Source: Patescibacteria group bacterium (GTDB taxonomy: Bacteria > Patescibacteriota > Microgenomatia > UBA8517). Taken from it: 64,000 nucleotides of DNA. A model generated the notes under the pieces. The model searched no databases. It worked only from the letters and a program-made list of their open reading frames with translations, and was not told the origin of the DNA. The stretch spans positions 319,508 to 383,507 of the forward strand of contig DAITMO010000001.1 of the NCBI GenBank assembly GCA_036835125.1, in the 5' to 3' direction. Shown here piece by piece: positions 22,070 through 64,000 of this stretch. A program made the position numbers and the translations under genes. How positions within the stretch are numbered: the stretch's first letter is position 1; every line of letters starts with the position of its first letter.

Positions 22070-22075
22070 AAAGAA

Positions 22076-23326
22076 ATGAAGAAAATTTTAGCAATAGTAC
22101 TAACAGTTGGGATACTCCTTCGGGTTTTCCTTTCAATGACTACATACCATGCAGATGTTGCGGCTTTAGGATTTGCAGGGAAAATAATATCGCAAGGAAA
22201 TATATCTAACTTTTATGACTTTTTAGGGAATTTGCCAGAGGATGATCCATATCTTGCAGTTTATCCAAAAGACCTTTTTATCTATCCTCCTACCATATAC
22301 TTTCTAAATGGATTGTTTGCTAAGTTGACTAATTGGATGATTTCTCCTGAAGTTCTTAATAATTTCACTCTTAATTTTACTTCTACATTAGGAAATTCTC
22401 AGCTAAATTTGTATCTATTGCTTCTGAAGCTACCCTATTTTGCATTTGATATTGCTTCAGTATTTGTTTTAATGGCGCTTTTTAAGGATGAAAAGAAAAA
22501 GATGTTAGCTTTTATTGTTTGGATTTTTAATCCAGTGAGTATTTATGCAACATATATGATGGGACAGTTTGATATTATTCCGACATTCTTTGTAATTCTT
22601 GCAATGTATCTGGCAATGAAGAGAGAAAAAATATACCTAGCCTCCTTAATGTTGGGGATTGGAATGTCTTTTAAGATTTATCCGCTACTATTCTTAATTC
22701 CTTTGGCTTTAACAAAAGATAAATGGATAGATAGAATCAAAGTGTTTGTTCTTGGTATCCTGCCCTATATTCTTTCAGTTCTTCCTTTCATTTTCTCAAA
22801 AGGGTTTAGGGCCTCAGCTCTTGTTGCCGGGCAAACTACAAAAAGTTTATATGCGATCTTACCGATTTCAGGCGGAGAATCGATAATGATATATTTGGCG
22901 GCAATAATTTTTGTATATATTGTGTTTCTATTCTCTGAAAATAAACTAGAAAACTTGTGGCAGAAATTTTTCATAATCTCATCATTGTTTTTCATTTTTA
23001 CTCATTATCATCCACAATGGTTTACCTGGATAACTTCGTTTATTATTATTGATTTGGTTAAAAATGGGGCTAAAAGATGGCCTATTATTCTGTTGGCGCT
23101 AGTTAGCTGGCTTGGTCTTGTTACATTTTTTGATCCTGGATTAACTACTTGGCTATTTGCTCCATTGGTACCGAATCTTTGGGGTAAACCTGGGCTCTGG
23201 GAACTTGTTGGAGTGAATCTTGATATCAATATTGCAAGAAGTTATTTGCAAACTGTTTTTGCAGCGGTAGGCTTTTATTATATCTACAACTATTTTCCCA
23301 GGAAAAACGAGAATATAGCAAAATGA
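22076..23326 (+). CDS. polytopic membrane protein, DUF2029/GT87-like (GT-C-like mannosyltransferase family), tandem paralog 1 of 2
   Basis: KLPYFAFDIASVFVLM...WIFNPVSIY...GMSFKIYPLLFLIPLAL matches the conserved pattern of the DUF2029/PimE-like family. About 10 TM helices. Confidence 0.45.
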   Translation: MKKILAIVLTVGILLRVFLSMTTYHADVAALGFAGKIISQGNISNFYDFLGNLPEDDPYLAVYPKDLFIYPPTIYFLNGLFAKLTNWMISPEVLNNFTLNFTSTLGNSQLNLYLLLLKLPYFAFDIASVFVLMALFKDEKKKMLAFIVWIFNPVSIYATYMMGQFDIIPTFFVILAMYLAMKREKIYLASLMLGIGMSFKIYPLLFLIPLALTKDKWIDRIKVFVLGILPYILSVLPFIFSKGFRASALVAGQTTKSLYAILPISGGESIMIYLAAIIFVYIVFLFSENKLENLWQKFFIISSLFFIFTHYHPQWFTWITSFIIIDLVKNGAKRWPIILLALVSWLGLVTFFDPGLTTWLFAPLVPNLWGKPGLWELVGVNLDINIARSYLQTVFAAVGFYYIYNYFPRKNENIAK

Positions 23327-24534
23327 AAAAACTAATTGTTACGGCAATAATTTTAAGGCTACTTATTTCAATGTTTATATTTCATCCAGATATTAAAACA
23401 TTCAATTTTCAAGCTTCATTTTTAAGGCATGGGGTTTTTAATATTTATTCCTATCTTATAGACAACAAGGAAACACTTCCTTTAAAGGAAAACTTTGTTT
23501 ATTTCCCTCTAACTTATCTTACGCTTGGGTCATACCAGGCAGTTGTTGCACCTTTAATGGGTAACGACTTTGATTCGTGGCTTTCCAATGCTGATTCGTT
23601 TGGAATTGTTACGGATTCGAATATTTTTAAATATATGCTTGCTTTAAAGCTTCCATATCTGGTTTTGGATATGGTGGTTGCTTTTATGCTTTTGAAGTAT
23701 TTTGAAGACAAAAAGGTAGGGAAGAGAGCATTTATCTTCTGGTTATTTAATCCTTTTACAATTTTTATTATCTATGCTTTTGCGAATGTAGACATATATC
23801 CAGTTGTGTTGGTTTTATCCTCCATTCTTTTGATGAAAAAAGGGAAGTCAGGGTTTGCGGCATTAATGCTTGGACTGGCGGCAGGCTTTAAAATTTATCC
23901 TCTGCTTTTTGTGCCGTTCCTTTTTGTATCAGGTAAGTCTTGGAAAGAAAAATTAAAACTGGCAACTATCCCTTTTGGAATATTTGTGGCAGTATCTCTT
24001 CCTTTTCTTTCATTAGCGTTTTTGGAATCAACTCTCATTTCAGGGCTTACTACAAGACTTTTTAATCCAGGGATAAATGTTGGTTTTGGAGAATCAATTA
24101 TTGTGGGATTGATGCTTCTTTCGGCTCTATTCTTTTATAGTCTTTTGGTTGATAAAAAACCAAATATGTTCAATTACTTTTTGACAACACTCCTTGTCAT
24201 ATTTGCATTCTCCCATTTCCATGTTGCATGGCTTTTGTGGATTGCTCCCTTTTTGGTAATTGTTGCAGCTAAAGAATCCAAGCTTTCAGGGATTGTCTTT
24301 ATGCTTAGTATTGCGGCAATTTTAATACCTCTTCTTTATCAGGATAGATCTATGTCTATCTCGCTTTTTAGAATTTATTCAACCTGGTTTGATTTGCTGC
24401 CGACTCCGTTTACTGCTATTCAGAAGTTCTTTGATCCTTATAGCTTACAGAGTATTTTGCATTCACTATTTGCGGGAGGAGCCGGAATATTGGTGTATAA
24501 ATTATTTAGGGAGAATAGTTTAGAAAAAAAATAA
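23323..24534 (+). CDS. polytopic membrane protein, DUF2029/GT87-like, tandem paralog 2 of 2
   Basis: KLPYLVLDMVVAFMLL...WLFNPFTIF...GFKIYPLLFVPFLFV. ATGA overlap with paralog 1. Confidence 0.45.
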   Translation: MKKLIVTAIILRLLISMFIFHPDIKTFNFQASFLRHGVFNIYSYLIDNKETLPLKENFVYFPLTYLTLGSYQAVVAPLMGNDFDSWLSNADSFGIVTDSNIFKYMLALKLPYLVLDMVVAFMLLKYFEDKKVGKRAFIFWLFNPFTIFIIYAFANVDIYPVVLVLSSILLMKKGKSGFAALMLGLAAGFKIYPLLFVPFLFVSGKSWKEKLKLATIPFGIFVAVSLPFLSLAFLESTLISGLTTRLFNPGINVGFGESIIVGLMLLSALFFYSLLVDKKPNMFNYFLTTLLVIFAFSHFHVAWLLWIAPFLVIVAAKESKLSGIVFMLSIAAILIPLLYQDRSMSISLFRIYSTWFDLLPTPFTAIQKFFDPYSLQSILHSLFAGGAGILVYKLFRENSLEKK

Positions 24535-24536
24535 AG

Positions 24537-25142
24537 ATGAAAAAAATGATTTGGCTGACAATAGTCTTTGTATTAGGACTGGTGTTTGTTGTTCCGGTTA
24601 TTCTCTCCATGGGTTTAAAAATGATTCCTATTAATACTCAACCTGGATTAAATTATGATGTAAGGCTTTCAATTTATAGAGACAGGTTGTTTCTCCAGAA
24701 ATTTACCGCCAAGGAAGACAATTTGACTGCAATTGGAATGTCTATCAGAAATCCCAATTTGAAAAATAAAGCGGAAATATATTTCAACTTGATGAACTTG
24801 GATGGAAGCATTATACGAAGCGTTGCTATAAGCGGCATGAATCTTGAAGATGGTTCTTTTACCAAGTTTGTTTTTGATCCGATTCCCGATTCATTTGGAA
24901 AGGAATATTTGTTCACCCTATCTTCTCCTGGGGCAGGACCGGAGGAAACAATAGAACTATTTATTATTGGAACTGATGATCCGTCTGGAATAACAGAATA
25001 TTCATACATGGGTGAATCTTTCTCTGGAGGAACTCCGATTGTTCAATATGTAAAGCCGATAAGCAAGGTAAATACAGTTAAAGAAGTTTATACTAATTTG
25101 ATTTCCAGACTTCTGCCGCATCATTCTCAAAAATCTTATTAA
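24537..25142 (+). CDS. hypothetical membrane-anchored extracytoplasmic protein
   Basis: N-terminal signal anchor (IWLTIVFVLGLVFVVPVIL) followed by a roughly 170 aa domain with no recognisable motif. Its 3' end overlaps the convergent gene 25093..26955 by 50 nt. Confidence 0.4.
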   Translation: MKKMIWLTIVFVLGLVFVVPVILSMGLKMIPINTQPGLNYDVRLSIYRDRLFLQKFTAKEDNLTAIGMSIRNPNLKNKAEIYFNLMNLDGSIIRSVAISGMNLEDGSFTKFVFDPIPDSFGKEYLFTLSSPGAGPEETIELFIIGTDDPSGITEYSYMGESFSGGTPIVQYVKPISKVNTVKEVYTNLISRLLPHHSQKSY

Positions 25143-26955
25143 GTCCATATTCTTCTGGAGTGACTGCTGGCGTTAGTTCTTTTGGATAATAAATAATATT
25201 TGCGTGAGTTTCTTCAAATGCTTTTTGGACAGTTTGTGTTTCACTTCCTTCAAAGATGGTCTTTTTAATAGTGTCTCTTTCGCGCCAGCTGTAGCCCATT
25301 ATGTCAGCTTGTTCATAGTCTTCAAAATATGTTCTTCGACTTGAGAAAGCTGCAACATATGAAGTATCAAACCAGTCCCAGATATTTGGTGTGACTTGTT
25401 TTAAATCTAGGTATTGATTGTAGGGTGGTGTAACAATAACAATATCTTTCGTGGTGTTTTTCTTGATATAGTTTAGAGCTCCAAGTTCACCTTCTGAAAT
25501 TCTTGCAAATGCAGGTCTTTTATAGAATTCATAGATAAGCCCTATCTGGGTTGGAATCATGATGGCGATAAGGGTAAGAGCAAATACTATTCGGATCGGG
25601 GTATGTTTTATTTTTGAAAGCAATTTAGAAACAGATATTCCTGCAAGTATTCCAAAGAACAATACAAAATACTGCAGAAACTGGCTGGTGTTGCTGGCAA
25701 CCCCTTTTTGGAGGAACAAAAGCGGTAGAACCAAGGAAATTACGATAGCTGATTTGATAAATACATTTGTCTTTATATATTCTTTAAGACCAATGAATCT
25801 TACTCCAAGATTTCCAAAGAAGAAGATAAGGAGTCCTATTCCCTCATACTCAAGAATTCTTAATATAGATTTAATTCCGCCGCGGTCAAGATAAAATTGA
25901 CGTCTCAACTCAAGGTCTATCCAATCAAGGCGGGAGTTTTCCACTATCATTGTTCGTATATACCACCAGGGTTGGAATATTAAAAATGCTGTAGATCCTG
26001 AAGTATTTGGAATGTAAAGGGCAGCAGCTAATATTCCACTAATGCCAGTGATTATAAGTGTGTCAATTTTCTTTTCTTTAATTAGTTGCCAAAGTCCTGC
26101 AATTCCAAGAGCTCCTAGGGCAACAACTCCTGCATATACTTTAAAGCTTGCCAGGGTGCCAAAAAGGACTACACAGATTACTGAATATATTATTTTTGCC
26201 TTCTTTTCTTTTTGTTCCCTAAATGAAAGATAGAAATAAAGGCCAGTAAGTATTAAGAAGTCTGAGGCAATCTGAGGAGGGTTGCCTGCAGCACTTTGCG
26301 GTTGTGTTGCCCAGAATATGCTTTCTCCTCCTATTGTTTTATTTTTGATAAAAGTGACAATATATCCAAAACTTCCTGCAAAATATGTAAATATTGTTGC
26401 CCAAATAGGTGCATATTGGTTTTTACTCAGTTTTTTAGTTAGATAGTAAGCAGATACTCCCAAGAATAGGGAACCTATAAATGGAAATACTCTGAAGTAC
26501 AGGGTTACATCGGACACTGGAAGATACTTACCAATCATTGCCGGCAGAATATCACTAAAGAAGTGGTAGTTGATGAGCCTTTCTCCAGCAAAGGATGGAT
26601 TTTGGAATGGCCACCCTCGTCTTATCTCGTCCATTAACGCAATGTGCCATGCTCCATCGTGTCCGTTTGCACTCCAGAAAAGCATATCTCCACTCTTTGA
26701 GAATATTCCACTTGGGGAAATGATTGCCATTTGTCCAACAATTCCAAGGATAAAGACAAGAAGTGTTATAGCTGTCCGCTTATTCCATTTGGTGTTTGTC
26801 TTTTCTATTGCTTTTGCAATTGGTTTTCCTGCAAAAAGCATTAGGACAAGAATTGTGGGGACGATTAAGACAGGAATTTTTAAGAGTATGAATATATAGG
26901 AAAGGAGTGTCAGGCAAGAAAAAGCAGCAATTGAGAACATTAGTATTCCTTCCAT
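25093..26955 (-). CDS. polytopic membrane protein, putative GT-C-like (inverted paralog of 15309..17042)
   Basis: SANGHDGAWHIAL...NPSFAGERLINYHFF...GGESIFWATQ blocks are shared with 15309..17042. It is 620 aa with many TM helices and is the only minus-strand gene between 15 kb and 43 kb. Confidence 0.5.
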   Translation of the reverse strand: MEGILMFSIAAFSCLTLLSYIFILLKIPVLIVPTILVLMLFAGKPIAKAIEKTNTKWNKRTAITLLVFILGIVGQMAIISPSGIFSKSGDMLFWSANGHDGAWHIALMDEIRRGWPFQNPSFAGERLINYHFFSDILPAMIGKYLPVSDVTLYFRVFPFIGSLFLGVSAYYLTKKLSKNQYAPIWATIFTYFAGSFGYIVTFIKNKTIGGESIFWATQPQSAAGNPPQIASDFLILTGLYFYLSFREQKEKKAKIIYSVICVVLFGTLASFKVYAGVVALGALGIAGLWQLIKEKKIDTLIITGISGILAAALYIPNTSGSTAFLIFQPWWYIRTMIVENSRLDWIDLELRRQFYLDRGGIKSILRILEYEGIGLLIFFFGNLGVRFIGLKEYIKTNVFIKSAIVISLVLPLLFLQKGVASNTSQFLQYFVLFFGILAGISVSKLLSKIKHTPIRIVFALTLIAIMIPTQIGLIYEFYKRPAFARISEGELGALNYIKKNTTKDIVIVTPPYNQYLDLKQVTPNIWDWFDTSYVAAFSSRRTYFEDYEQADIMGYSWRERDTIKKTIFEGSETQTVQKAFEETHANIIYYPKELTPAVTPEEYGLNKIFENDAAEVWKSN

Positions 26956-26982: not shown

Positions 26983-28398
26983 ATGGGAAAGAAGACGTGG
27001 CTGATTCTGCTTGGAATTGTTCTTTTGGGGTTGGTTATCAGACTTATTAAAATTGGATCTCTTCCTCTTTACGGTGATGAGCTGACAATGGTATATGACA
27101 CCTACTCAATCAGCAAAACTGGAATGGATGCTACTGGAGAAAAGCTTCCTTTAACCTTTAAGATGGGAGCGGGTCGTCCTGGTGGATACATTTATTTTTC
27201 TGTTCCTTTTGTTGCCGCCTTTGGTCCTAATGTTTGGGGGGAGAGATCTCTGTCTCTTCTTTCGGGGGTTGGAATAATTATCCTCATATATTTCCTGGGA
27301 AAGAAATTGTTTGGTGAAAAGGTCGGGTTAACTGCAAGCATTCTTACTGCAATTTCTCCATGGGATATTTATTTAAGCAGGGGAGGATTTGAAGCACATT
27401 TTGCGCTGTTTCTGGCTCTTTTTGGGATAACAATGTTTTTTTACAGGAGATATATTTTTTGGGCAATTTTCTGGGGATTAGCACTTTTTACTTATCCGAC
27501 TTTCAAGTTAACTCTACCTATTATTTTTGTACTTTTAACTTTAGTACAGGGAGTCGCAAAATCATTAAAAGACAAAAAGTATATTGCAGGAACTTTACTT
27601 CTTTTGGTTTTTGGAGGAATTATCGCTACTCAAACTTTTACTGCGGGAAGCGAAGATAGATTTCTTTCCCAGAATGTTCTATCTGATGAAAAAACCAAAA
27701 ACAATCTGATTCAGGTGGTGAGTACAGAAAGAAATACCTCTATTCTTCCAAGTTTCTTAAAACCAGTTTTTATAAATAGAAAAATAGAATATGGAAAGAT
27801 TATACTTGATAATTATGTGGCCAATATCTCCCCACAGTTTCTCTTTTTGAGGGGGGACGGGAATCCCAGACATAATCCTGGAGAAATGGGAATGCTCTAT
27901 TTGGCAGAACTACCAATACTTTTAGTCTCCATTTTTCTTTTATGGAAGGAAGACAAGAAGAAGTTCACTATTCTTTTTGGTTGGATTTTGATAGTACCTC
28001 TTGCAACAATGTTAATGGGACAAACTCATGCTTTAAGAAATGGCTTTATGCTTCCTCCTTTAATTCTTTTGACTGCTTTTACACTTTCAAAGATGTCTAA
28101 AAAATATGTTAAGTTATTTGGTATTCTTGTTGGAATTCAGTTGGTTTATATTTTAGTGCGTCTTTATACAGTTGTTCCTGCTAAATTTGCAGACTTCTGG
28201 TCAGCTCCTGCAAAAGAGGCAGCTCTTATTGCAATAGAGGAGAGTAAGAATGGACAAAAAGTTACTTTGGATGTTACAAAAATAGACAATATTGAATATG
28301 CATATGAGGTATATGCAAAGGTTGACCCAAAAGAAGTTATTACCCAGAGCGGTAGTTTCCCCAAAGTTTATGGCAATGTCACAATCACTGATAAATAA
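26983..28398 (+). CDS. GT39/PMT_2 (ArnT-like) membrane glycosyltransferase
   Basis: DE loop motif LPLYGDELTMVYDTYSISKTG...LPLTF, polytopic, C-terminal soluble domain. Confidence 0.6.
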   Translation: MGKKTWLILLGIVLLGLVIRLIKIGSLPLYGDELTMVYDTYSISKTGMDATGEKLPLTFKMGAGRPGGYIYFSVPFVAAFGPNVWGERSLSLLSGVGIIILIYFLGKKLFGEKVGLTASILTAISPWDIYLSRGGFEAHFALFLALFGITMFFYRRYIFWAIFWGLALFTYPTFKLTLPIIFVLLTLVQGVAKSLKDKKYIAGTLLLLVFGGIIATQTFTAGSEDRFLSQNVLSDEKTKNNLIQVVSTERNTSILPSFLKPVFINRKIEYGKIILDNYVANISPQFLFLRGDGNPRHNPGEMGMLYLAELPILLVSIFLLWKEDKKKFTILFGWILIVPLATMLMGQTHALRNGFMLPPLILLTAFTLSKMSKKYVKLFGILVGIQLVYILVRLYTVVPAKFADFWSAPAKEAALIAIEESKNGQKVTLDVTKIDNIEYAYEVYAKVDPKEVITQSGSFPKVYGNVTITDK

Positions 28399-28408
28399 AT
28401 TCAAAGTC

Positions 28409-29878
28409 ATGACACATGGCAAGGCTTTTAAGATTATTTTATTTACTGTGGTTCTTATTTTTACGTTTATTTTAAGAGCTCATAACTATGAAAAAACTCC
28501 TACACCATCTCATTTAGACGAACAGCTCTATGCTCTTTCTGGAATTAACTTGATAGAAACAGGAGTTCCGGTTTCCTGGTCTACACTGGATTATCCGGAG
28601 AGTGCTGTTGTTTTTGATGGGAAAATCTCCTATAAAGGTGGAGAACCTTCTGCGTCGGTTAAGCTTTTTAAGCCGTGGCTTGATGAACCGCCTCTTTTCT
28701 CGTTACTGGTTGGAGAATCTGCACATTTATTTGGTGCAGACAGGAATGATTTTATTCCCTCTTCATTTATTAGATTCCCAATTGTGATAATTTCTACACT
28801 AACCTCAATTCTTATATTTCTTATTGCCAAAAAGGTTAGTGGTTACAGGATCGGAATTCTATCAATGCTTATTTATGGAACCGAACCGGTTATGGTTTTT
28901 GCGTCCCGCAGTGCAATGCCCGAGACTTTGATTACCTTTTTGTATTTGCTGGTAGTTTATTTATTAATTTATTTTATCAAATCCCCCAAATCTAGATACT
29001 TGATTCCAATCCCTATACTTGCTGGAATTGCAGGACTTGCGAAGCCAACCGGGTATTTTATTTTAGGAATTGCGGCTTACCTTGTTATTGCGAAATTGGT
29101 TGAAAATAAAACTAGTTGGAAGAAGATATCCATGACTGTTGGATATTTGATATTAGGAATTGTGCCTTTTGTTATTTTCTATATTTGGTATGGAAATCAT
29201 TTTGATCCAGAAATATTTAAAAGGATTATTTCTATTCAAGGTTTTAGGCCTGTGGGTTTTGAAAACTTGGCATGGTTTTTTATAACTCCAAGTTTTTCCA
29301 CTGTGGTTTTCAAAAGCAGTTGGTATGTGTTTTTGCTTCTTGCCAGTGCATTTTATATTTTCCAGCCAAAAGATAAATTGCAAAAAATTATTAGTTTGTC
29401 ATTTGTCTACTGGCTATGTGTGGTAATGGTTTCTTCAGGGGAGGTGGATCTTCTTTCCTGGTATAGATTTCCAGCACTTCCTTTTATGGCAATAATGGGT
29501 GCATGGGGAATAGAATATTTAGTTAAGAGGTCTGACTTTTTTGCCTCATTTTTAGCTGTTGGATTATTCTTAGGACCTCGTACACTTCTGGTTAATGCTT
29601 TTAGGCCAAACGTGATGCAGGGAACTTTTAGAGCAACAATACTAACACTTCTTGCACCATCTCTTCTCAATTCAGTTTTCAACAAAAAGGTATTCAAGGT
29701 TATCTCCAGAGCAGTCATTATTGGAGTGGTGGTGGTTGGGATGTGGTGGAATATCAAATACGTATACAATGCTTATGAAGTCGAATGCCAAAACAAAATT
29801 TGCCCGATGGTGCCAACAACTACCTTATCAAGTATTCACTTTCCTCTTGTCTGGAGGCTGTTTGTTCTTAGCGAGTAA
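28409..29878 (+). CDS. GT39/PMT_2-like membrane glycosyltransferase
   Basis: ATG at 28409 directly after the upstream stop. HLDEQLYALSGINLIETG DE-type loop and many TM helices. The ORF-track start at 28292 would overlap the upstream gene by about 100 nt. Confidence 0.5.
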   Translation: MTHGKAFKIILFTVVLIFTFILRAHNYEKTPTPSHLDEQLYALSGINLIETGVPVSWSTLDYPESAVVFDGKISYKGGEPSASVKLFKPWLDEPPLFSLLVGESAHLFGADRNDFIPSSFIRFPIVIISTLTSILIFLIAKKVSGYRIGILSMLIYGTEPVMVFASRSAMPETLITFLYLLVVYLLIYFIKSPKSRYLIPIPILAGIAGLAKPTGYFILGIAAYLVIAKLVENKTSWKKISMTVGYLILGIVPFVIFYIWYGNHFDPEIFKRIISIQGFRPVGFENLAWFFITPSFSTVVFKSSWYVFLLLASAFYIFQPKDKLQKIISLSFVYWLCVVMVSSGEVDLLSWYRFPALPFMAIMGAWGIEYLVKRSDFFASFLAVGLFLGPRTLLVNAFRPNVMQGTFRATILTLLAPSLLNSVFNKKVFKVISRAVIIGVVVVGMWWNIKYVYNAYEVECQNKICPMVPTTTLSSIHFPLVWRLFVLSE

Positions 29879-29897
29879 AGCTGGTAACATTTAGTAT

Positions 29898-31559
29898 ATG
29901 AAGAAGCTGATTTATCCAATACTTCTTGGTTTAATTGTTCTCCTTGCTTTCTTTTTGCGTTTCTATAAGGTTACTCAGTCTCCACCTTCTTTAAATTGGG
30001 ATGAGACTTCAATTGCCTATAATGCATACTCGATTTTAAAGACTGGTAAGGATGAATGGGGAGTAAAGTTTCCTCTGAACTTTAAGTCCTATGGTGAGTA
30101 TAAACTTCCGGCTCAAATTTATGCTTCAATTTCGGGAATTGCAATATTTGGACTTAACGGATTGGGAGTGAGAATTACTCCTGTTGTGTATGGTACTCTT
30201 ACAGTCCTTCTTTTATATTTTTTGGCAAACTTGCTGTTTAAGGACAAAAGGGTTGGACTTTTGTCTGCTTTTATTCTTGCAGTTTCTCCCTGGCATATAC
30301 AACTAACTAGGGCAAGTTTTGAATCAGGCTTTTCAGTATTTTGGGTTGTCTTGGGGGCAATATTATTTATTAAGGGTTTTGAAAAGAAAAAGTATTGGGC
30401 GCTTTCCATTATTCCTTTTGTAATTTCTATTTATACATATAATGCTGCCCGTGTTTTTACTCCTCTATTTATTTTTATGTTGTTTTTGATTTATAGAAAA
30501 GAACTTTTGAAAGACTTGAAAGTATTTTTAATTTCTTTTGGAATATTTGTTATCAGTGTTGTTCCCATCGGTTTATCATTCTTCAGTGGTGAAGCTTCAG
30601 CTAGGTTTAAGTTGGTGAGTATTATGGATGACCCCGGTTTTGTTCAGAGAGTTAATCAGGCAAGAGGAAAAACTGATCTGCCAGATCCACTGCCTAGATT
30701 GATACATAACAAAGTAACCCACTTTGCCTATGTGTTTGCTGGAAATTATTTGAGCCATTTTACTCCAGATTTTTTGTTTATGAATGGAGCAGGACATAAA
30801 CAGCATCATGTACAGGGAATTGGAGAACTTTTCTGGGTGCAAGCCCCTTTTATACTGGTGGGGATCTATTTCCTTTTCAAAAAGAAAGAAAAATGGAGAT
30901 TTTTCATAATTGCCTGGCTACTTTTGACATTCATTCCGGTTTCTATAACGGTGGACAGCATTCCTAATGCGTTAAGGACTATTCTTGCAGTTATTCCATA
31001 TTCGCTTCTCTCTGCTTATGGTTTTTGGCAGATTTTTGATATTTTTAAAGGTAAGAAAAAGGGGAGATTTTTTAATTTATCAATTATCCTAGTTTCAGCA
31101 GGTCTTTTCCTTTACCAATTTATTAATTTCCAAAATAATCTTTATAACATTTATCCAAAGCTGTATTCGCGCGACTGGCAGTATGGGTATAGGCAGGTCG
31201 TTACCTATATCAAAGATCATTACGATGAATATGATTTAATAGTATTCAGCCGTACATATGGTGAGCCACACATGTTTACCTTGTTCTTTATGAATTGGGA
31301 CCCCGCTAAGTATCAGAATGATCCAAATTTAGTTAGGTATGAATCAAATGATTGGGTTTGGGTCTTAAATTTTGATAAATTCTATTTCCCGGATTTGGGG
31401 GATGATGGAACAAAATACAAAGACATAGTTGATTTGAATCCTGGGAAGAAGATACTTTTTGTTGGACGATCACAGGACTTTTCTGATTCAGTTGAAAGGC
31501 TTTATACTGTTGATTTTCTTAATGGGAACAGGGCATTTGATATTGTTGAAAGCAAATGA
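29898..31559 (+). CDS. GT39/PMT_2-like membrane glycosyltransferase, tandem paralog 1 of 3
   Basis: PPSLNWDETSIAYNAYSILKTGKDEWGVKFPLNFKSYGEYKLP is a conserved block with the next two genes. Length 553 aa. Confidence 0.6.
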   Translation: MKKLIYPILLGLIVLLAFFLRFYKVTQSPPSLNWDETSIAYNAYSILKTGKDEWGVKFPLNFKSYGEYKLPAQIYASISGIAIFGLNGLGVRITPVVYGTLTVLLLYFLANLLFKDKRVGLLSAFILAVSPWHIQLTRASFESGFSVFWVVLGAILFIKGFEKKKYWALSIIPFVISIYTYNAARVFTPLFIFMLFLIYRKELLKDLKVFLISFGIFVISVVPIGLSFFSGEASARFKLVSIMDDPGFVQRVNQARGKTDLPDPLPRLIHNKVTHFAYVFAGNYLSHFTPDFLFMNGAGHKQHHVQGIGELFWVQAPFILVGIYFLFKKKEKWRFFIIAWLLLTFIPVSITVDSIPNALRTILAVIPYSLLSAYGFWQIFDIFKGKKKGRFFNLSIILVSAGLFLYQFINFQNNLYNIYPKLYSRDWQYGYRQVVTYIKDHYDEYDLIVFSRTYGEPHMFTLFFMNWDPAKYQNDPNLVRYESNDWVWVLNFDKFYFPDLGDDGTKYKDIVDLNPGKKILFVGRSQDFSDSVERLYTVDFLNGNRAFDIVESK

Positions 31560-32911
31560 AAATTGGAAAAAATAAAATCCTTCTTATCCTAGTATTTATT
31601 TTCTTCTTGATAACTAGGCTTTTTATGATCTCAGATATACCGGGATCTGTTTATTGGGATGAAGCATCAATTGGATATAATGCATATTCAATAGGAACTG
31701 ATCTGAAGGATGAATGGGGACAAACTCTACCTTTGCACTTTAGAGCTTTTGGAGAGTTTAAGCTTCCTGTCTATATTTATTCTGTTGTGCCATTTGTAAA
31801 AATATTAGGGCTTAATGCTTTTGCTGTAAGGCTTCCTGCAGTGCTTTATAGTTTGGGTTCAATATTCTTAGTTTATCTTTTAGTTAAAAAGATTACGAAC
31901 AAAGATTTGCTTGGTGTATTATCTGCCTTTTTGCTGAGTATCTCTCCCTGGTTATTTATTTTTTCAAGAACTGGATATGAGGCAACAGCGGGGCTCTTCT
32001 TTATACTAGCTGGTACATACTTAGTATTACTTTCGGAAAAAAAGAATTTTTATTATTTATTGGGAACTTTCTCTTTTATCTTGTCTTTTTATAGCTACAA
32101 TTCCTTCCGTATTATCGGGCCGGTTTTGTTAGCTTTTCTAACTTTGCATAAATTTAACAAAAAGAGAATTCCTATTATTGTTTTATCTTTTGTAATATTT
32201 GTGATTTCTTTAATCCCAGTTTATCGGCTCTATAAATTTGATAATGGCGCATCACGCTTCACTCAGGTTGGTGTGTCAAATGCTAGCCAGGTTGTCAAAA
32301 ACTACTTTGCAAATTTTTCACCACGATTCTTGTTTATAAATGGTGATACAAATCCTAGAAGCCAGGTTCCAGATCACGGAGAATTATTTTATCTTGACAT
32401 GGTCTTTACTGTCTTGGGACTCATTTATATTATTAAGGGTAAAAAACTAATTAATTATTTGCCGGTTTTGATGTTGGTACTTTCTCCAATTCCAGCAGCT
32501 CTTACAAAAGAGTCTCCTCATGCGCTTCGTGCAATTCTTGCCGCACCAAGCTTTGCAATGATTTCTGCTTTTGGCATCTTTTTCTTTATCGAAAAGTTTA
32601 AGAAATATTCAAAATATGTTTTGTCATTAATTGTTGCGGGGTACTTGGTACTTTTTGGCTTTTATTATTCTGACTTTATTAAGAACTACAACAACGAAAC
32701 GAGAAAGGCTTGGCAATATCAATACAAAGAGATATTTTTAAATAAGACTGCCGGGGTTGTTACTGATGAATATGCACAGCCCTATATTTTTGCACTGTTC
32801 TATCAAAAGTATTCACCTGAGAATTTTAGGAGTGAGGTAAAATACAACCCACCCGATAAATGGGGGTTCTCTCTTGTTTCCTCATTTAACGGGTTTGAAT
32901 TTAGAAAATGA
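31556..32911 (+). CDS. GT39/PMT_2-like membrane glycosyltransferase, tandem paralog 2 of 3
   Basis: IPGSVYWDEASIGYNAYSIGTDLKDEWGQTLPLHFRAFGEFKLP. ATGA overlap with the upstream gene. Confidence 0.6.
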   Translation: MKIGKNKILLILVFIFFLITRLFMISDIPGSVYWDEASIGYNAYSIGTDLKDEWGQTLPLHFRAFGEFKLPVYIYSVVPFVKILGLNAFAVRLPAVLYSLGSIFLVYLLVKKITNKDLLGVLSAFLLSISPWLFIFSRTGYEATAGLFFILAGTYLVLLSEKKNFYYLLGTFSFILSFYSYNSFRIIGPVLLAFLTLHKFNKKRIPIIVLSFVIFVISLIPVYRLYKFDNGASRFTQVGVSNASQVVKNYFANFSPRFLFINGDTNPRSQVPDHGELFYLDMVFTVLGLIYIIKGKKLINYLPVLMLVLSPIPAALTKESPHALRAILAAPSFAMISAFGIFFFIEKFKKYSKYVLSLIVAGYLVLFGFYYSDFIKNYNNETRKAWQYQYKEIFLNKTAGVVTDEYAQPYIFALFYQKYSPENFRSEVKYNPPDKWGFSLVSSFNGFEFRK

Positions 32912-34506
32912 GATATTTAAAGATTATTGTTCTTACATTGATAGTTTTGGCAGCCACTTTTTTAAGGTTGTATAAACTAACTGATGTTCCTCCATCTTTG
33001 AATTGGGATGAAACTGCAGCGGGTTATAACGCCTATACAATTGCTAATTGGGGAGCAGATGAATATGGGAACAAGTTTCCAATAACTTTCAGGTCTTTCG
33101 GAGATGATAAACATCCTGTACATATTTATATAACTGCACTTTTTGTAAAAGTGTTCGGTCTTAATGAGTTTGTCACAAGGTTTCCCAGTGCCTTATTTGG
33201 AATACTGACAGTCGTTGCTATTTATTTTCTAGTTAAGAAAATGTTTAAGAGTGAAGTTGCTGGAATTTTTGCTTCGCTGTTTTTAGCTGTTTCTCCCCAT
33301 CATTTGCAGCTTTCAAGAGGGCTTTGGGAGGCAAATTTTGCATTATCCTTCTATATTTTTGGCTTACTGTTTTTCTATAAATTTTTGGAAAAGAAAAAAT
33401 GGATGCTTCCTATCTCAATTCTTTGTTTTGGATTATCATTCTTTTCCTATCACTCTTCCAAAGTCCTTGTTCCACCAACACTTATTCTTCTTTTAGTTTT
33501 TTATTTCAAAAAGATTGTTAAAGATAGAAAAATATTAATCATTTCAGGATTGGTGTTCCTTCTTTTTGTTGGACTGACCATCAAGGATCCGAGAATCTTG
33601 GGTTTTGCCAGAGTTGAACAAAATAAATTCAGTAAAGATGACATAAAAAATACTTTTATCTATCAAAAAACAAATAGCCAAATTTTAGGAAAAGCTGAAA
33701 TAGTTTTTGACAGTTACAAAACATATTTCTATCCAAAGTATTTGTTTACCTCGGGAGACACTAACCCCAGAAACTCAGCTAATGCTTTTGGTCAGTTTTA
33801 CAAAATTGATGCGCTATTGATGGTGGTAGGAATCGTGGCACTTATTCTTTTAAGGTCAAAGGAGTCACTAACTATGGCAATGTGGCTTATCCTCGCACCT
33901 TTACCTGCTGCACTTGCTGGAGGGCCACAGAATGCGATTAGGGCATGTTTTATGATTGGAGTGGGGATTATTTTATCCGCGCTAGGGGCTGCAAAGATTG
34001 CTGCTATTTTTAAGAAAAAGGTTTGGTATGTGGCAATAAGCATTTTGGTACTCGCACCTCTTTTTTGGGAGTTTGGAAAATATATGAATTATTACTACAC
34101 GGTTTATGGGCAGAAGCATGCAATTGAGTGGCAGTATGGAATGAAAGGGATTGTGAGGTATCTAAAGAAGAATCCTGATAGAGTGCAAGTTTATATGGAT
34201 AAAATCAGGCAGCAGCCGTATATATTTTTCCTATATTATCTTAAGACTCCCTTGCCTGAACTGTTAGAGACGGTTAAATACGATCAGAGTGAATCTAAGA
34301 GCTACAATACAGTCGTATCATTCGATAAATATCAATTCGGTGGCAACTGGAATATAATTGATAGCATCCCGACCTGCGGGGTAACCTATATAATGACGCC
34401 TAGTTATCATTCAGGTTTGAGATATGCGGCGGATCTGGAGACAAAAGAAGTGATTGAGTATCCTGATGGCAGTGATGCATTTTATATAGTAGAAGGATGT
34501 AAATAA
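32908..34506 (+). CDS. GT39/PMT_2-like membrane glycosyltransferase, tandem paralog 3 of 3
   Basis: VPPSLNWDETAAGYNAYTIANWGADEYGNKFPITFRSFGDDKHP. ATGA overlap with the upstream gene. Confidence 0.6.
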   Translation: MRYLKIIVLTLIVLAATFLRLYKLTDVPPSLNWDETAAGYNAYTIANWGADEYGNKFPITFRSFGDDKHPVHIYITALFVKVFGLNEFVTRFPSALFGILTVVAIYFLVKKMFKSEVAGIFASLFLAVSPHHLQLSRGLWEANFALSFYIFGLLFFYKFLEKKKWMLPISILCFGLSFFSYHSSKVLVPPTLILLLVFYFKKIVKDRKILIISGLVFLLFVGLTIKDPRILGFARVEQNKFSKDDIKNTFIYQKTNSQILGKAEIVFDSYKTYFYPKYLFTSGDTNPRNSANAFGQFYKIDALLMVVGIVALILLRSKESLTMAMWLILAPLPAALAGGPQNAIRACFMIGVGIILSALGAAKIAAIFKKKVWYVAISILVLAPLFWEFGKYMNYYYTVYGQKHAIEWQYGMKGIVRYLKKNPDRVQVYMDKIRQQPYIFFLYYLKTPLPELLETVKYDQSESKSYNTVVSFDKYQFGGNWNIIDSIPTCGVTYIMTPSYHSGLRYAADLETKEVIEYPDGSDAFYIVEGCK

Positions 34507-34516
34507 TAAAAACAAT

Positions 34517-35359
34517 ATGAAACTTTCAGTTGTTTTGTCTACAAGAAATGAAGAAGAAAATATCGGCAGGTGTTTAACGTCTGTCAAAGATTTTGCTGAT
34601 GAAATGATTATTGTAGATGAACAGTCTTCAGATAGAACTCGAGAAATTGCAAGAGATTTGGGAGCAAAAGTATATATTGAACCACACGAAGAAATTTTCC
34701 ATATAACCAAGCAAAAGGCGATGGACAAAGCAAAAGGAGAGTGGATTCTTCAGATGGATGCTGATGAGGAAGTTAGTGAGGAATTGGCAAAAGAAATTGT
34801 CTCTGTAATTAACAGCGATGAACAAAAAATGACCCGCAATAGATTGTTTTTAAGGCATCAGAGATTGATTGAAGAAAGGGGTGGAAAGATTGGAAAAGAA
34901 AATGGGGATATAGTTGGATATTTTATTCCAAGAAGAAATATTTTTCTTGGGAAACCTCTTATTCATGCAGGAGTATATCCGGATGGGGTAATTAGGTTGG
35001 TTAAGAATGGATATGCAAAGTTTCCAATGAAATCTGTTCATGAACAGATAAGTTTGAATGGGAGAGTGTCCTGGTTAAATAATGACTTGCTGCATTATGA
35101 TTCACCAAATCTTTCAAAATATATTTGGAGATTAAATAGATATACAGATCTTTTTGCAAAGGAATTAAAAGAAAAGAATGTTCACAAAAATTTCTTTTCA
35201 TACATGAATTATGTTTGCATTAAACCAAAAATAATTTTTCTGAAACTGTTTTTCAGACATCTTGGATTTTTGGATGGAGCAAGGGGGTTTCTTTGGAGTT
35301 TTTTCTCAGCCTCTCATTACCCGATTGCCTATTTTAAATATATAACTAATAAGGTATAA
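34517..35359 (+). CDS. GT2 glycosyltransferase (WaaE/KdtX-like)
   Basis: LSVVLSTRNEEENI...MIIVDEQSSDRT...QMDADEE...IPRRNIFLGKPL...GVYPDGVIRLVKNG. Confidence 0.75.
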   Translation: MKLSVVLSTRNEEENIGRCLTSVKDFADEMIIVDEQSSDRTREIARDLGAKVYIEPHEEIFHITKQKAMDKAKGEWILQMDADEEVSEELAKEIVSVINSDEQKMTRNRLFLRHQRLIEERGGKIGKENGDIVGYFIPRRNIFLGKPLIHAGVYPDGVIRLVKNGYAKFPMKSVHEQISLNGRVSWLNNDLLHYDSPNLSKYIWRLNRYTDLFAKELKEKNVHKNFFSYMNYVCIKPKIIFLKLFFRHLGFLDGARGFLWSFFSASHYPIAYFKYITNKV

Positions 35360-37100: not shown

Positions 37101-39208
<2,108 letters not shown>

Positions 39209-39209
<1 letters not shown>

Positions 39210-39865: not shown

Positions 39866-39872
39866 AAATAAA

Positions 39873-52227: not shown

Positions 52228-52239
52228 GATTTTTAGAAT

Positions 52240-53846: not shown

Positions 53847-53871
53847 AAATATAGTTAATTAATTTAAACTA

Positions 53872-57273: not shown

Positions 57274-57328
57274 ACATGAACGGCGTTTCTATTAAACAAA
57301 TACGAATCAAACCGTTGATTAAATCGTA

Positions 57329-59421: not shown

Positions 59422-59432
59422 CCAATAGATTT

Positions 59433-61443: not shown

Positions 61444-61460
61444 CTTCCATTACTTTTTCA

Positions 61461-62543: not shown

Positions 62544-62601
62544 TTAATAGAAAATATGAGGTTGTGTTACAGTGTTAAAGATGTAAACTAACGGAGATAA
62601 T

Positions 62602-63153: not shown

Positions 63154-63156
63154 AAA

Positions 63157-63996: not shown

Positions 63997-64000
63997 TATT

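What the first reader, a model, noticed from the sequence alone, without database searches (positions are those of the whole stretch)
26983..34506. Five consecutive GT39/PMT_2-like genes, the last three forming a tandem triplet
Genes 29898, 31556 and 32908 share the block (P)PSLNWDE[TA]..[GA]YNAY[ST]I....DE[WY]G..FP..F[KR][SA][FY]G[ED] and overlap one another by ATGA. Genes 26983 and 28409 carry the same DE-loop architecture but are more divergent. Taken with 9601 and 11126, this gives at least seven ArnT/Pmt-like enzymes in the window.
Basis: seen in the sequence. Interest (0 to 1): 0.55.

Follow-up and report, generated by a model that had tools for sequence, protein, structure and literature searches.

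The report
Conserved GT-C glycosyltransferase paralogue array
Five neighbouring genes in this tiny Woesebacteria-like (candidate phyla radiation) genome do encode ArnT/PMT-type membrane sugar-transferases, but they are ancient paralogues kept in the same order across related genomes, not recent duplicates, and they probably perform separate steps in building the cell-surface sugar coat.

Summary
Five co-oriented ORFs (26983-34506) all score above Pfam's PMT_2 gathering cut-off. The last three overlap by ATGA and share the cited EL1 motif, although its spacer is 5 residues, not 4.

The genes are not recent copies. 29898, 31556 and 32908 are only 30-32% identical, and 26983 belongs to the same family (26-30%). 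28409 is a separate PMT_2 lineage with no C-terminal domain.

In at least 11 Woesebacteria/Microgenomates MAGs, each family-A gene has a 1:1 orthologue (49-82% identity) in the same order, and each orthogroup has 100% bootstrap support. 28409 sits in a variable slot. The candidate catalytic and donor-binding residues (D34, E35, K/R68, R137, E141, R345) are kept in all four orthogroups.

An AlphaFold model of 32908 (pLDDT 90.5) matches AglB/STT3, ArnT, ALG12 and PMT at TM 0.5-0.6. That is the GT-C fold, but no solved family is close. GT39 membership specifically is not established.

A DPMS/ArnC/GtrB-like GT2 with a DUF2304 partner (39209/39873) is the likely donor synthase. The window holds 15 GT-C-clan genes within a large envelope-glycan locus.

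Verdict: a real feature and a new member of a known kind. The acceptor is unknown and interest is moderate to low.

The parts
26983..28398 (+). Family-A GT-C glycosyltransferase (471 aa) and the oldest branch of the family. Its C-terminal soluble domain is short (~76 aa).
   Evidence: PMT_2 30.1 bits. 26-30% identical to 29898/31556/32908, E 1e-27 to 1e-41. Its own orthogroup spans 11 genomes with 100% bootstrap support. It keeps D34, E35, D51, R68, R137, E141 and R345.
28409..29878 (+). Separate PMT_2-type GT-C lineage (489 aa, or 502 aa from ATG 28370). It has no C-terminal domain and occupies a variable slot in the array.
   Evidence: PMT_2 55.7 bits. The best in-window BLAST hit is E 7e-4, to 17076. 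It has more than 120 orthologues at 51-84% identity. It lies directly upstream of the triplet in L005, L017 and L018, and is absent in L001, L002, L006, L008, L010, L011 and L013. It keeps the D-E, K68, R91 and R137 equivalents but lacks D51, E141, R345 and W408.
29898..31559 (+). Family-A GT-C glycosyltransferase (553 aa), first gene of the triplet, with a 137-aa C-terminal soluble domain.
   Evidence: PMT_2 42.1 bits and PMT 30.3 bits. Orthogroup of 12 genomes with 100% bootstrap support. Motif confirmed.
31556..32911 (+). Family-A GT-C glycosyltransferase (451 aa), second gene of the triplet, with a truncated 76-aa C-terminal domain. It overlaps its upstream neighbour by ATGA.
   Evidence: PMT_2 38.6 bits and PMT 27.5 bits. 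Overlap confirmed. Orthogroup with 100% bootstrap support. C-terminal domain lengths.
32908..34506 (+). Family-A GT-C glycosyltransferase (532 aa), third gene of the triplet, with a 135-aa C-terminal soluble domain. It overlaps its upstream neighbour by ATGA.
   Evidence: PMT_2 80.4 bits. AF2 model pLDDT 90.5, pTM 0.92. Foldseek hits to AglB, STT3, ArnT, ALG12, PglB, PMT and Emb. ArnT profile hit at E 3.8e-5. Over 1100 homologues.
34517..35359 (+). GT2 glycosyltransferase (280 aa) found next downstream of the 32908 orthologue in relatives; in the permuted L006 it follows the 31556 orthologue. Its role is unknown.
   Evidence: Glycos_transf_2 70.2 bits. Syntenic in L001-L013 at 60-72% identity. 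The closest solved proteins are GmaR and SunS, over the N-terminal ~100 aa only.
39209..39865 (+). Candidate polyprenyl-phosphate-sugar synthase (GT2, 218 aa), the likely maker of the lipid-linked donor.
   Evidence: The closest solved proteins are DPMS 5mlz (E 2e-12, full length), ArnC and GtrB. NCBIfam best hits are AglJ 100 bits and PpgS 92 bits, both below their cut-offs. Syntenic in L002, L007 and L018.
39873..40205 (+). DUF2304 small membrane protein, the likely partner of the synthase (like Rv3632 with PpgS).
   Evidence: PF10066 68.5 bits. The same GT2-DUF2304 pair occurs in L018. The precedent is described in PMC3485146.
9601..12508 (+). Two further distant PMT_2 genes (9601-11148 and 11126-12508).
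   Evidence: PMT_2 50.1 and 31.2 bits. They are 16-22% identical to family A and branch outside it.
25093..26955 (-). Conserved polytopic membrane protein of unknown family, divergently adjacent to 26983. It is the only minus-strand gene in the array and a paralogue of 15309.
   Evidence: No Pfam or NCBIfam family. 31% identical to 15309. Orthologue in every relative at 55-65% identity. hhalign to family A gives only 11% probability.
17076..24534 (+). Five more GT-C-clan genes upstream: the PTPS_related trio 17076/18754/20378 and the GT87/PIG-M pair 22076/23323.
   Evidence: Pfam hits, paralogy and syntenic orthologues.
13859..15352 (+). Wzx/MOP-type flippase in the same locus.
   Evidence: Polysacc_synt_3 192.7 bits. 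NCBIfam MOP flippase 155 bits.

Best explanation
The five genes encode polytopic GT-C-fold glycosyltransferases of the Pfam PMT_2 type. They lie in one co-directional, tightly packed gene block inside a very large cell-envelope glycan locus of a Woesebacteria-like CPR bacterium (MAG GCA_964443015.1). Four of them (26983, 29898, 31556, 32908) descend from duplications that predate the divergence of this clade. Each has since been kept as a distinct, catalytically intact gene in a fixed order, and the triplet genes are joined by start/stop overlaps. 28409 is an unrelated PMT_2 lineage inserted in a variable slot.

Inferred mechanism: a GT2 enzyme (39209, with its DUF2304 partner 39873) charges polyprenyl phosphate with a sugar on the cytoplasmic face, and the lipid-linked sugar is then flipped. 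Each GT-C enzyme transfers the sugar on the outer face of the membrane, using the EL1 Asp-Glu (D34/E35) at the acceptor and Lys/Arg residues (K68, R137, R345) at the lipid phosphate. The paralogues are non-redundant. Their fixed group-specific residues and different C-terminal extracytoplasmic domains give each its own acceptor or linkage, so together they add successive or alternative sugars to a surface glycopolymer or to surface glycoproteins.

Shown: family membership, fold, age of the duplications, synteny and residue conservation. Inferred: donor type, topology, division of labour and acceptor.
For: PMT_2 scores above gathering for all five genes. The confident AF2 model of 32908 matches GT-C enzymes only: AglB, STT3, ArnT, ALG12/9, PglB, PMT and Emb, with E 1e-8 to 1e-3. 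The profile aligns 32908 residues 67-222 to ArnT, placing D67-K68-H69-P70 on ArnT's 'EKPP'. ArnT K85 contacts the lipid-carrier phosphate, and a conserved Arg does the same in the oligosaccharyltransferases (PMC7801869). Paralogues are 26-32% identical while orthologues are 49-82% identical in the same order in L001-L013, L017 and L018. The four orthogroups each have 100% bootstrap support. D34, E35, D51, K/R68, R91, R137, E141, R345 and W408 are invariant in all four orthogroups, and group-specific fixed residues occur at positions 32, 33, 67, 69, 284, 288, 434 and 438. C-terminal domain lengths are specific to each orthogroup. Start/stop overlaps or abutment at the triplet junctions are conserved in 10 of 11 genomes. 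39209 is closest to DPMS, ArnC and GtrB, is followed by DUF2304, and the pair is syntenic in L018. The surrounding locus holds a Wzx flippase, GT2 and GT4 genes and sugar-nucleotide enzymes.
Against: There are no biochemical data for any member of this family. The acceptor is completely unknown. The similarity to characterised GT-C enzymes is remote: TM 0.5-0.6, 12-16% identity, and an ArnT sequence hit of only E 3.8e-5 over 156 residues. The donor-synthase assignment rests on similarity below NCBIfam's equivalog cut-offs and on a position 4.7 kb downstream, not on adjacency. The strictly adjacent GT2 (34517) does not look like a polyprenyl-phosphate synthase. Conserved gene overlaps may simply reflect genome compaction.
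Confidence: 0.6

Rival explanations
1. The genes encode genuine protein O-mannosyl/glycosyl-transferases (CAZy GT39, as the public annotation says). They would glycosylate Ser/Thr of secreted or surface proteins such as pilins or S-layer proteins, with the paralogues covering different protein substrates, as the eukaryotic PMT1/2/4 subfamilies do.
For: The Pfam PMT model passes its cut-off for 29898 (30.3 bits), 31556 (27.5 bits) and 9601 (37.1 bits). Sources name the orthologues 'glycosyltransferase family 39'. The EL1 'DE' motif matches the PMT hallmark. A GT39-annotated enzyme in a Firmicute is required for protein glycosylation (PMC6151902). The adjacent GT2 34517 is closest to the protein and peptide glycosyltransferases GmaR and SunS.
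Against: The PMT score for 32908 is below its cut-off (22.2 vs 22.7), and 26983 and 28409 do not hit PMT at all. There is no PMT_4TMC or MIR domain. Among solved structures, the PMT proteins rank below AglB, STT3, ArnT and ALG12 and align over only ~260-280 columns. The only PDB sequence hit is ArnT. The 'GT39' names are automatic.
Confidence: 0.2
2. The triplet, or the whole quartet, forms a hetero-oligomeric GT-C complex like Pmt1-Pmt2 or EmbA-EmbB. The overlapping genes would ensure stoichiometric co-production. This is compatible with the main explanation but makes a distinct claim.
For: Start/stop overlaps at both triplet junctions are conserved in 10 of 11 genomes. Order and co-occurrence are strictly conserved. 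Known GT-C paralogue pairs form heterodimers (PDB 6p25 Pmt1-Pmt2 and 7bvf EmbA-EmbB, both among the fold hits).
Against: No interaction evidence exists. L006 has a permuted order (32908 orthologue before the 29898 and 31556 orthologues) and L008 has a 663-nt gap. Gene overlaps are common in compact CPR genomes.
Confidence: 0.2
3. The proteins are oligosaccharyltransferase-like enzymes that move a pre-assembled lipid-diphosphate-linked glycan en bloc onto protein. That glycan would be built by the many GT2 and GT4 enzymes of the locus and flipped by the Wzx 13859.
For: The best Foldseek E-values are to AglB and STT3 (1e-8 to 1e-7). There are weak NCBIfam hits to archaeo_STT3. An invariant W408-Q-Y-G right after the last TM helix recalls WWDYG. 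A Wzx flippase and many cytoplasmic glycosyltransferases lie nearby.
Against: There is no Pfam STT3 hit. The archaeo_STT3 scores are 18-23 bits against a cut-off of 450. WQYG degenerates in 31556 (WQY[EQ]) and 26983 (WSA[ED]). The isolated C-terminal domain model (pLDDT 83) has no PDB neighbour at E < 0.1, so it does not resemble the AglB or PglB periplasmic domain.
Confidence: 0.07
4. The proteins are ArnT-like (GT83) enzymes that modify a membrane lipid, for example to resist cationic peptides.
For: The only significant PDB sequence hit is ArnT. The best TM-score among bacterial enzymes is to ArnT (0.57/0.56). Sources name the orthologues 'ArnT-like'. 39209 is similar to ArnC.
Against: From established knowledge, CPR/Patescibacteria lack an outer membrane and lipid A. 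No ArnA, ArnD or ArnE/F equivalents were found among the Pfam-scanned genes of the window. Four conserved, differentiated paralogues are hard to reconcile with a single lipid decoration.
Confidence: 0.05
5. The triplet is a recent tandem duplication or amplification, or an assembly artefact.
For: The genes are adjacent, share an orientation and carry a shared motif.
Against: Protein identity is only 30-32%. Every copy has its own orthologue in at least 11 other genomes, and each orthogroup has 100% bootstrap support. The identical protein is recovered from independent assemblies in NCBI, ENA and Logan.
Confidence: 0.01

Closest known systems
ArnT (CAZy GT83; Cupriavidus metallidurans, PDB 5ezm/5f15)
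   Same: ArnT has the GT-C fold and carries the Pfam PMT_2 signature. It is the only solved protein found by sequence profile (E 3.8e-5), with TM 0.57/0.56. It shares an EL1 acidic residue and an [DE]-K-x-P motif aligned to ArnT E84/K85, and it also has a small extracytoplasmic C-terminal domain. It is expected to share the polyprenyl-monophosphate-sugar donor, made here by an ArnC/DPMS-like GT2.
   Different: Structural-alignment identity is only 12-13% (Foldseek). There is no lipid A in this organism and no arn operon context. The C-terminal domain is unrelated by Foldseek. This family exists as four conserved paralogues rather than one gene.
Protein O-mannosyltransferases (CAZy GT39: yeast Pmt1/Pmt2/Pmt4; actinobacterial Pmt; Cbes_1864)
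   Same: Both have the 'DE' motif in the first extracytoplasmic loop. Marginal PF02366 hits are present. Both form paralogue families with division of labour and heterodimers. The public annotation gives these genes the GT39 name.
   Different: There is no PMT_4TMC or MIR domain. 32908, 26983 and 28409 do not pass the PMT model. PMT structures rank lower in the fold search. No protein acceptor is known.
embC-embA-embB arabinosyltransferase operon of mycobacteria (GT-C, CAZy GT53)
   Same: It is also a tandem triplet of differentiated GT-C paralogues in one operon, using a polyprenyl-phosphate sugar donor and carrying out distinct steps of envelope polysaccharide assembly. EmbA-EmbB form a heterodimer. 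Emb structures appear among the fold hits.
   Different: Emb proteins are about 1,050-1,100 aa with large carbohydrate-binding C-terminal domains. They belong to a different Pfam family (Arabinose_trans). TM to the target is only 0.21-0.23. This is an analogy of organisation, not family membership.
PpgS (Rv3631) / Rv3632 / Rv3779 system of M. tuberculosis; also three-component GtrB-GtrA-GtrC and CsbB-GtcA-YfhO systems
   Same: The logic is the same: a GT2 polyprenyl-phosphate-sugar synthase, a small membrane partner (DUF2304 here) and a GT-C transferase acting outside the membrane (PMC3485146). 39209 scores 92 bits to the PpgS model.
   Different: The PpgS score is below the equivalog cut-off of 370. 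Here the synthase would serve many GT-C enzymes and lies 4.7 kb from the array. The sugar is unknown.
Oligosaccharyltransferases AglB/STT3/PglB (CAZy GT66)
   Same: These give the best Foldseek E-values. They share the overall GT-C architecture with a C-terminal extracytoplasmic domain.
   Different: There is no STT3 HMM hit, no WWDYG or DK/MI motifs, and the C-terminal domain is not similar.

Membership tests
Pfam PMT_2 (PF13231), GT-C clan | HMM score at or above the curated gathering score (26.1 bits) | tested here: met
   30.1, 55.7, 42.1, 38.6 and 80.4 bits for the five genes.
Pfam PMT_2 (PF13231), GT-C clan | GT-C fold: polytopic membrane domain with a long first extracytoplasmic loop | tested here: met
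   The AF2 model of 32908 has pLDDT 90.5. All 36 Foldseek hits with E < 0.02 are GT-C enzymes. Only 32908 was modelled, so the others are inferred by homology.
Pfam PMT_2 (PF13231), GT-C clan | Conserved acidic catalytic residue(s) in extracytoplasmic loop 1 | tested here: met
   D34-E35 are invariant in 38 homologues and in all four orthogroups. They are also present in 28409, and in 9601 as D-E.
Pfam PMT_2 (PF13231), GT-C clan | Basic residues that bind the lipid-carrier phosphate (ArnT K85 equivalent; conserved Arg) | tested here: inconclusive
   K68 aligns to ArnT 'EKPP', and K/R68, R137 and R345 are invariant in family A. Spatial proximity was not checked. 28409 lacks R345.
Pfam PMT_2 (PF13231), GT-C clan | Use of a polyprenyl-phosphate-linked sugar donor | not testable with these tools
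   Only contextual support: a DPMS/ArnC/GtrB-like GT2 plus DUF2304 in the locus.
CAZy GT39 (protein O-mannosyltransferase, PMT) | Pfam PMT (PF02366) N-terminal domain above its cut-off (22.7 bits) | tested here: inconclusive
   29898 scores 30.3 and 31556 scores 27.5, so both pass. 32908 scores 22.2 and just fails. 26983 and 28409 have no hit.
CAZy GT39 (protein O-mannosyltransferase, PMT) | C-terminal PMT_4TMC domain (and MIR domains in eukaryotic members) | tested here: not met
   No such Pfam hit at E <= 0.01 in any of the five genes.
CAZy GT39 (protein O-mannosyltransferase, PMT) | CAZy family HMM assignment (dbCAN) | not testable with these tools
   No CAZy/dbCAN library is available. The 'GT39' names are automatic annotations.
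CAZy GT39 (protein O-mannosyltransferase, PMT) | Transfers mannose to Ser/Thr of proteins | not testable with these tools
   This needs biochemistry or glycoproteomics.
CAZy GT83 (ArnT) | Significant full-length similarity to ArnT | tested here: inconclusive
   The profile hit to 5ezm is E 3.8e-5 but covers only residues 67-222. TM is 0.57.
CAZy GT83 (ArnT) | arn operon context (ArnA/B/C/D/E/F) and a lipid A acceptor | tested here: not met
   Pfam scans of the window genes found no ArnA formyltransferase/decarboxylase, ArnD deformylase or ArnE/F. Only an ArnC-like GT2 is present. The absence of lipid A in CPR is background knowledge and was not tested here.
CAZy GT66 (STT3/AglB/PglB oligosaccharyltransferase) | STT3 HMM hit and a WWDYG motif in a homologous C-terminal domain | tested here: not met
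   There is no Pfam STT3 hit. NCBIfam archaeo_STT3 scores 18-23 bits against a cut-off of 450. Only 'WQYG' is present, and it is degenerate in two orthogroups. The C-terminal domain model has no PDB neighbour.

The most novel reading that the evidence does not exclude
The four family-A paralogues, with the neighbouring conserved GT-C genes and the unclassified 25093c/15309 family, could form a lineage-specific extracytoplasmic glycan assembly line of Woesebacteria/Microgenomates. It might act as a hetero-oligomeric complex. It would build a CPR-specific surface glycopolymer or glycoprotein coat entirely from polyprenyl-phosphate sugars outside the membrane, with a role in envelope integrity or host attachment. 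The C-terminal W-Q-Y-G/QQPYIF domain would then be a new acceptor-recognition module.
Probability: 0.2. Interest if true: 0.55.

Novelty: new member of a known kind. Interest (0 to 1): 0.3.

Why it matters
CPR/Patescibacteria have tiny genomes and are thought to live attached to other cells, yet almost nothing is known about their surface chemistry. This organism spends about 3.5% of a 643-kb contig on 15 GT-C-type enzymes, and its relatives keep the same differentiated paralogues in the same order. That argues for strong selection on a complex, externally assembled surface glycan. The result gives a defined, conserved gene set and named candidate catalytic residues for future expression, structural or glycomics work. 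It also corrects the automatic 'GT39 / ArnT-like' labels, which suggest functions (protein O-mannosylation, lipid A modification) that are not established here. In itself it remains an uncharacterised branch of a well-known enzyme superfamily.

Tried and rejected
1. Recent tandem duplication was rejected: paralogues are 30-32% identical, each has 1:1 orthologues, and each orthogroup has 100% bootstrap support.

2. A single-sequence PDB search with 32908 found nothing relevant. Only a 38-sequence profile reached ArnT.

3. The oligosaccharyltransferase idea, based on 'WQYG' after the last TM helix, gained no support. I modelled the C-terminal domain alone (pLDDT 83.3). Foldseek found no PDB neighbour (best E 0.12) and the sequence profile found nothing.

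4. I tested whether the unannotated conserved neighbour 25093c/15309 is a distant GT-C. hhalign against family A gave 11% probability, so no claim is made.

5. The promoter/terminator scan of 24-41 kb gave counts equal to the shuffled expectation and says nothing about operon boundaries.

6. The first NJ run timed out. The second gave NaN distances from the Kimura correction. The third had artefactual support values because the replicates were unrooted. The corrected version is.

7. My crude hydropathy TM count produced overlapping segments and is not used.

8. Literature searches for CPR plus GT39, mannosyltransferase or ArnT-like found no description of such arrays.

9. No tRNA genes are present in the window.

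Full report
OBSERVATION. The five ORFs exist as described: 26983-28398, 28409-29878, 29898-31559, 31556-32911 and 32908-34506, all on the + strand. The gaps before 28409 and 29898 are 10 and 19 nt. The last three genes overlap by ATGA, read directly from the sequence. For the second gene the ORF opens at TTG 28292. ATG 28409 lies just after the upstream stop, but public gene calls give 502 aa, which corresponds to ATG 28370.

The shared EL1 block is real but needs a 5-residue spacer, not the 4 written. In that form it matches 29898 and 32908. A slightly loosened form matches all three genes and nothing else in the six-frame translation. 31556 deviates from the stated block with PGSVYWDE and TLP.

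FAMILY. Pfam PMT_2 (gathering score 26.1) scores 30.1, 55.7, 42.1, 38.6 and 80.4 bits for the five genes, and 50.1 and 31.2 bits for 9601 and 11126.

The PMT model PF02366 is marginal. 29898 (30.3 bits) and 31556 (27.5 bits) pass its 22.7-bit cut-off, 32908 (22.2 bits) just misses it, and 26983 and 28409 have no hit. No PMT_4TMC, MIR or STT3 domain is found. NCBIfam gives only sub-threshold hits to TIGR03663 (Agl23 type) and archaeo_STT3.

RELATIONSHIPS INSIDE THE WINDOW. All-vs-all BLASTP shows that 29898, 31556 and 32908 are 30-32% identical over their full length (E 1e-62 to 1e-77). 26983 belongs to the same family at 26-30% identity (E 1e-27 to 1e-41). 9601 and 11126 are distant relatives (E 1e-6 to 1e-12). 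28409 is a singleton whose best in-window hit is E 7e-4, to 17076.

The two 'more divergent' genes are therefore not equivalent. One is a fourth member of the triplet's family, here called family A. The other is a separate PMT_2 lineage.

ORGANISM AND CONSERVATION. The exact 32908 protein is encoded on NCBI MAG GCA_964443015.1, contig CAYUBF010000001.1 (642,871 bp), and in independent ENA and Logan assemblies. Homologues number over 1100. The named ones come from Woesebacteria, Microgenomates and Patescibacteria and are auto-annotated 'glycosyltransferase family 39' or 'ArnT-like'.

Thirteen loci from GTDB species representatives were compared ORF by ORF. The gene order is 23323 - 24537 - 25093c(-) - 26983 - [slot] - 29898 - 31556 - 32908 - GT2(34517). 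It recurs in L001, L002, L004, L005, L007 (from 25093c onward; the contig ends there), L008, L010, L011 and L013. Each window gene has a single best orthologue at 49-82% identity, while the second-best hits, which are paralogues, stay near 30%. L006 has a permuted order.

A neighbour-joining tree with 200 rooted bootstrap replicates places each of the four family-A genes in its own orthogroup of 11-12 genomes, each with 100% support. The duplications therefore predate the divergence of these genomes.

28409 has its own large orthogroup, with more than 120 proteins at 51-84% identity. When present it sits directly upstream of the triplet, as in L005, L017 and L018. It is absent from seven of the thirteen loci. 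In L005, L007 and L018 the same slot holds other extra genes. The slot is therefore variable inside an otherwise fixed array.

CATALYTIC COMPETENCE AND SPECIALISATION. In a 38-sequence alignment the invariant residues include R20, D34, E35, D51, R91, R137, E141, Y181, Y270, R345 and W408. A per-orthogroup table shows that D34, E35, D51, K/R68, R91, R137, E141, R345 and W408 are kept in all four orthogroups, so none looks like a pseudo-enzyme.

Each orthogroup also has its own fixed residues at positions 32, 33, 67, 69, 284, 288, 434 and 438. The extracytoplasmic C-terminal domain is specific to each orthogroup: about 137 aa in 29898, 135 aa in 32908, 76 aa (76-126 in relatives) in 31556 and about 76 aa in 26983. 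28409 has no such domain. This pattern is what stable functional divergence would produce.

Start/stop overlaps or abutment at both triplet junctions are conserved in 10 of 11 genomes.

STRUCTURE. The AlphaFold2 model of 32908 is confident (pLDDT 90.5, pTM 0.92). Foldseek against the PDB returns only GT-C enzymes at E < 0.02:
- AglB (E 1e-8), yeast and human STT3, and PglB.
- ArnT (TM 0.57/0.56).
- ALG12 (TM 0.55/0.60) and ALG9.
- Pmt4, Pmt1/2, Emb and DPY19.

Identity is 12-16% and TM is about 0.5-0.6, so the fold is certain but no solved family is close. By sequence, only a profile reaches the PDB, hitting ArnT 5ezm at E 3.8e-5 over residues 67-222. That alignment places 32908 D67-K68-H69-P70 on ArnT 'EKPP'. 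In ArnT, K85 contacts the phosphate of the lipid carrier and E84/K85 contact the metal ion. A conserved Arg binds the phosphate in PglB, AglB and STT3 (PMC7801869). K68 and R345 are thus plausible equivalents. This is an inference, because the 3D proximity could not be checked.

DONOR SUPPLY AND CONTEXT. 39209 (GT2, 218 aa) is closest among solved proteins to the polyprenyl-phosphate glycosyltransferases DPMS (E 2e-12, full length), ArnC and GtrB. Among NCBIfam models it is closest to AglJ and PpgS, below their cut-offs. It is followed by a DUF2304 protein (68.5 bits) and preceded by an Fcl-like epimerase/reductase.

The GT2-DUF2304 pair is syntenic in L018. It mirrors M. tuberculosis PpgS/Rv3632, which supplies the GT-C enzyme Rv3779 (PMC3485146). 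The GT2 that follows the array in the relatives (34517) resembles GmaR and SunS only over its N-terminal ~100 aa, so its role is open.

The whole window is an envelope-glycan locus. It holds 15 GT-C-clan genes covering 22.8 kb, which is 36% of the window and about 3.5% of the contig. It also holds a Wzx flippase, an MFS transporter, many GT2 and GT4 genes, methyltransferases and a nonulosonic-acid-like sugar module. The GT-C-clan status of PTPS_related, GT87, Mannosyl_trans2 and PMT_2 is stated in PMC7801869.

MECHANISM (best explanation, confidence 0.6). A GT2 synthase loads a sugar onto polyprenyl phosphate in the cytoplasm, and the lipid-linked sugar is flipped. Each GT-C paralogue then transfers it on the outer face of the membrane, with the EL1 Asp-Glu at the acceptor and Lys/Arg residues at the phosphate. 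The paralogues are non-redundant and act on different acceptors or linkages of a surface glycopolymer or glycoprotein.

Family, fold, age of the duplications, synteny and residue conservation are shown. Donor, topology, division of labour and acceptor are inferred.

RIVALS. Five alternatives were considered:
- True GT39 protein O-glycosyltransferases (0.2): the DE motif and marginal PMT hits favour it, but the defining C-terminal domain is missing.
- A hetero-oligomeric complex (0.2, compatible with the main explanation): conserved gene coupling and the Pmt1-Pmt2 and EmbA-EmbB precedents favour it, but there is no interaction evidence.
- An oligosaccharyltransferase-like enzyme (0.07): the best Foldseek E-values and 'WQYG' favour it, but there is no STT3 hit and the C-terminal domain has no structural neighbour.
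- ArnT-like lipid modification (0.05): there is no arn context, and CPR lack lipid A (background knowledge).
- Recent duplication or artefact (0.01): refuted.

COMPARISON AND NOVELTY. In organisation, the closest analogue is the mycobacterial embCAB triplet of differentiated GT-C paralogues. In sequence and fold, the closest known enzyme is ArnT within the PMT_2 branch. In pathway logic, the closest known system is PpgS/Rv3632/Rv3779.

Membership of Pfam PMT_2 and the GT-C clan is met. Membership of GT39, GT83 or GT66 is not established, because for each of them a defining feature was tested and not met. No paper in the held library describes these arrays in CPR.

I rate this a new member of a known kind. 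It is a real, strongly conserved feature that is biologically suggestive for CPR surface biology, but it is an uncharacterised branch of a familiar superfamily with no surprising mechanism in view. Interest is 0.3.

Noticed in passing
window 5411-51454 (genes at 5411, 9601, 11126, 17076, 18754, 20378, 22076, 23323, 26983, 28409, 29898, 31556, 32908, 37097, 50138): Fifteen genes belong to Pfam GT-C-clan families (YfhO, PMT_2 x8, PTPS_related x2 plus one paralogue, GT87/PIG-M x2, PIG-V). They cover 22.8 kb, which is 36% of the window and about 3.5% of the 643-kb contig. This is a striking investment for a CPR-sized genome.
   Followed up: partly
window 25093-26955 (-) and 15309-17042 (+): These two polytopic proteins are 31% identical paralogues with no Pfam or NCBIfam family. 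25093c is the only minus-strand gene in the array and is conserved in every relative at 55-65% identity, including its ~50-nt convergent overlap with 24537-25142. Profile comparison to family A gave only 11% probability, so its nature (possibly a new GT-C-like family) is open.
   Followed up: partly
window 38274-40205: An Fcl-like NDP-sugar epimerase/reductase (38274), a DPMS/ArnC/GtrB/PpgS-like GT2 (39209) and a DUF2304 small membrane protein (39873-40205) lie together. This looks like a polyprenyl-phosphate-sugar synthase module resembling M. tuberculosis ppgS/Rv3632.
   Followed up: yes
window 28409-29878 and the equivalent position in L001-L018: The position between the 26983 orthologue and the 29898 orthologue is a variable slot holding 0-3 genes in different genomes: a 28409-type PMT_2 gene, extra family-A-like genes or a GT2. 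The flanking order stays fixed.
   Followed up: partly
window 34517-35359: This GT2 follows the family-A array in the relatives: it is next downstream of the 32908 orthologue in twelve loci and of the 31556 orthologue in the permuted L006. Its closest solved relatives are the protein and peptide glycosyltransferases GmaR and SunS/ThuS (N-terminal ~100 aa only), not the polyprenyl-phosphate synthases.
   Followed up: partly
window ~52000-64000 (GC 0.28-0.34): This lower-GC segment encodes a nonulosonic-acid-like sugar pathway: hexapeptide acetyltransferase 53872, epimerase/dehydratase 55190, GT4 56110, a polysialyltransferase-like protein (PF07388) 57329, CMP-sugar cytidylyltransferase-like 59433, DegT aminotransferase 60208, APH-type kinase 61461 and HAD phosphatase 62602. 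This is unusual for a CPR genome.
   Followed up: no
window 210-1304 (-) and 44317-45294 (-): Two Fic-domain genes lie on the minus strand, the second fused to a RhuM domain. The second sits where GC content starts to drop, which may mark the boundary of a variable or acquired glycan region.
   Followed up: no
window 40997-42433, 45341-46333, 46337-47674, 47667-49238: Further polytopic membrane proteins have no Pfam hit or only weak ones (PMT_2 17.2 bits for 46337; EpsG 25.7 bits for 47667). They may be additional polymerase or GT-C-like enzymes.
   Followed up: no
L001, L002, L003, L012, L013 record titles: Several MAGs that carry clear orthologues of this Woesebacteria-type array are titled 'uncultured Gammaproteobacteria bacterium' in their TPA records. 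This is probably a taxonomic mislabel.
   Followed up: no
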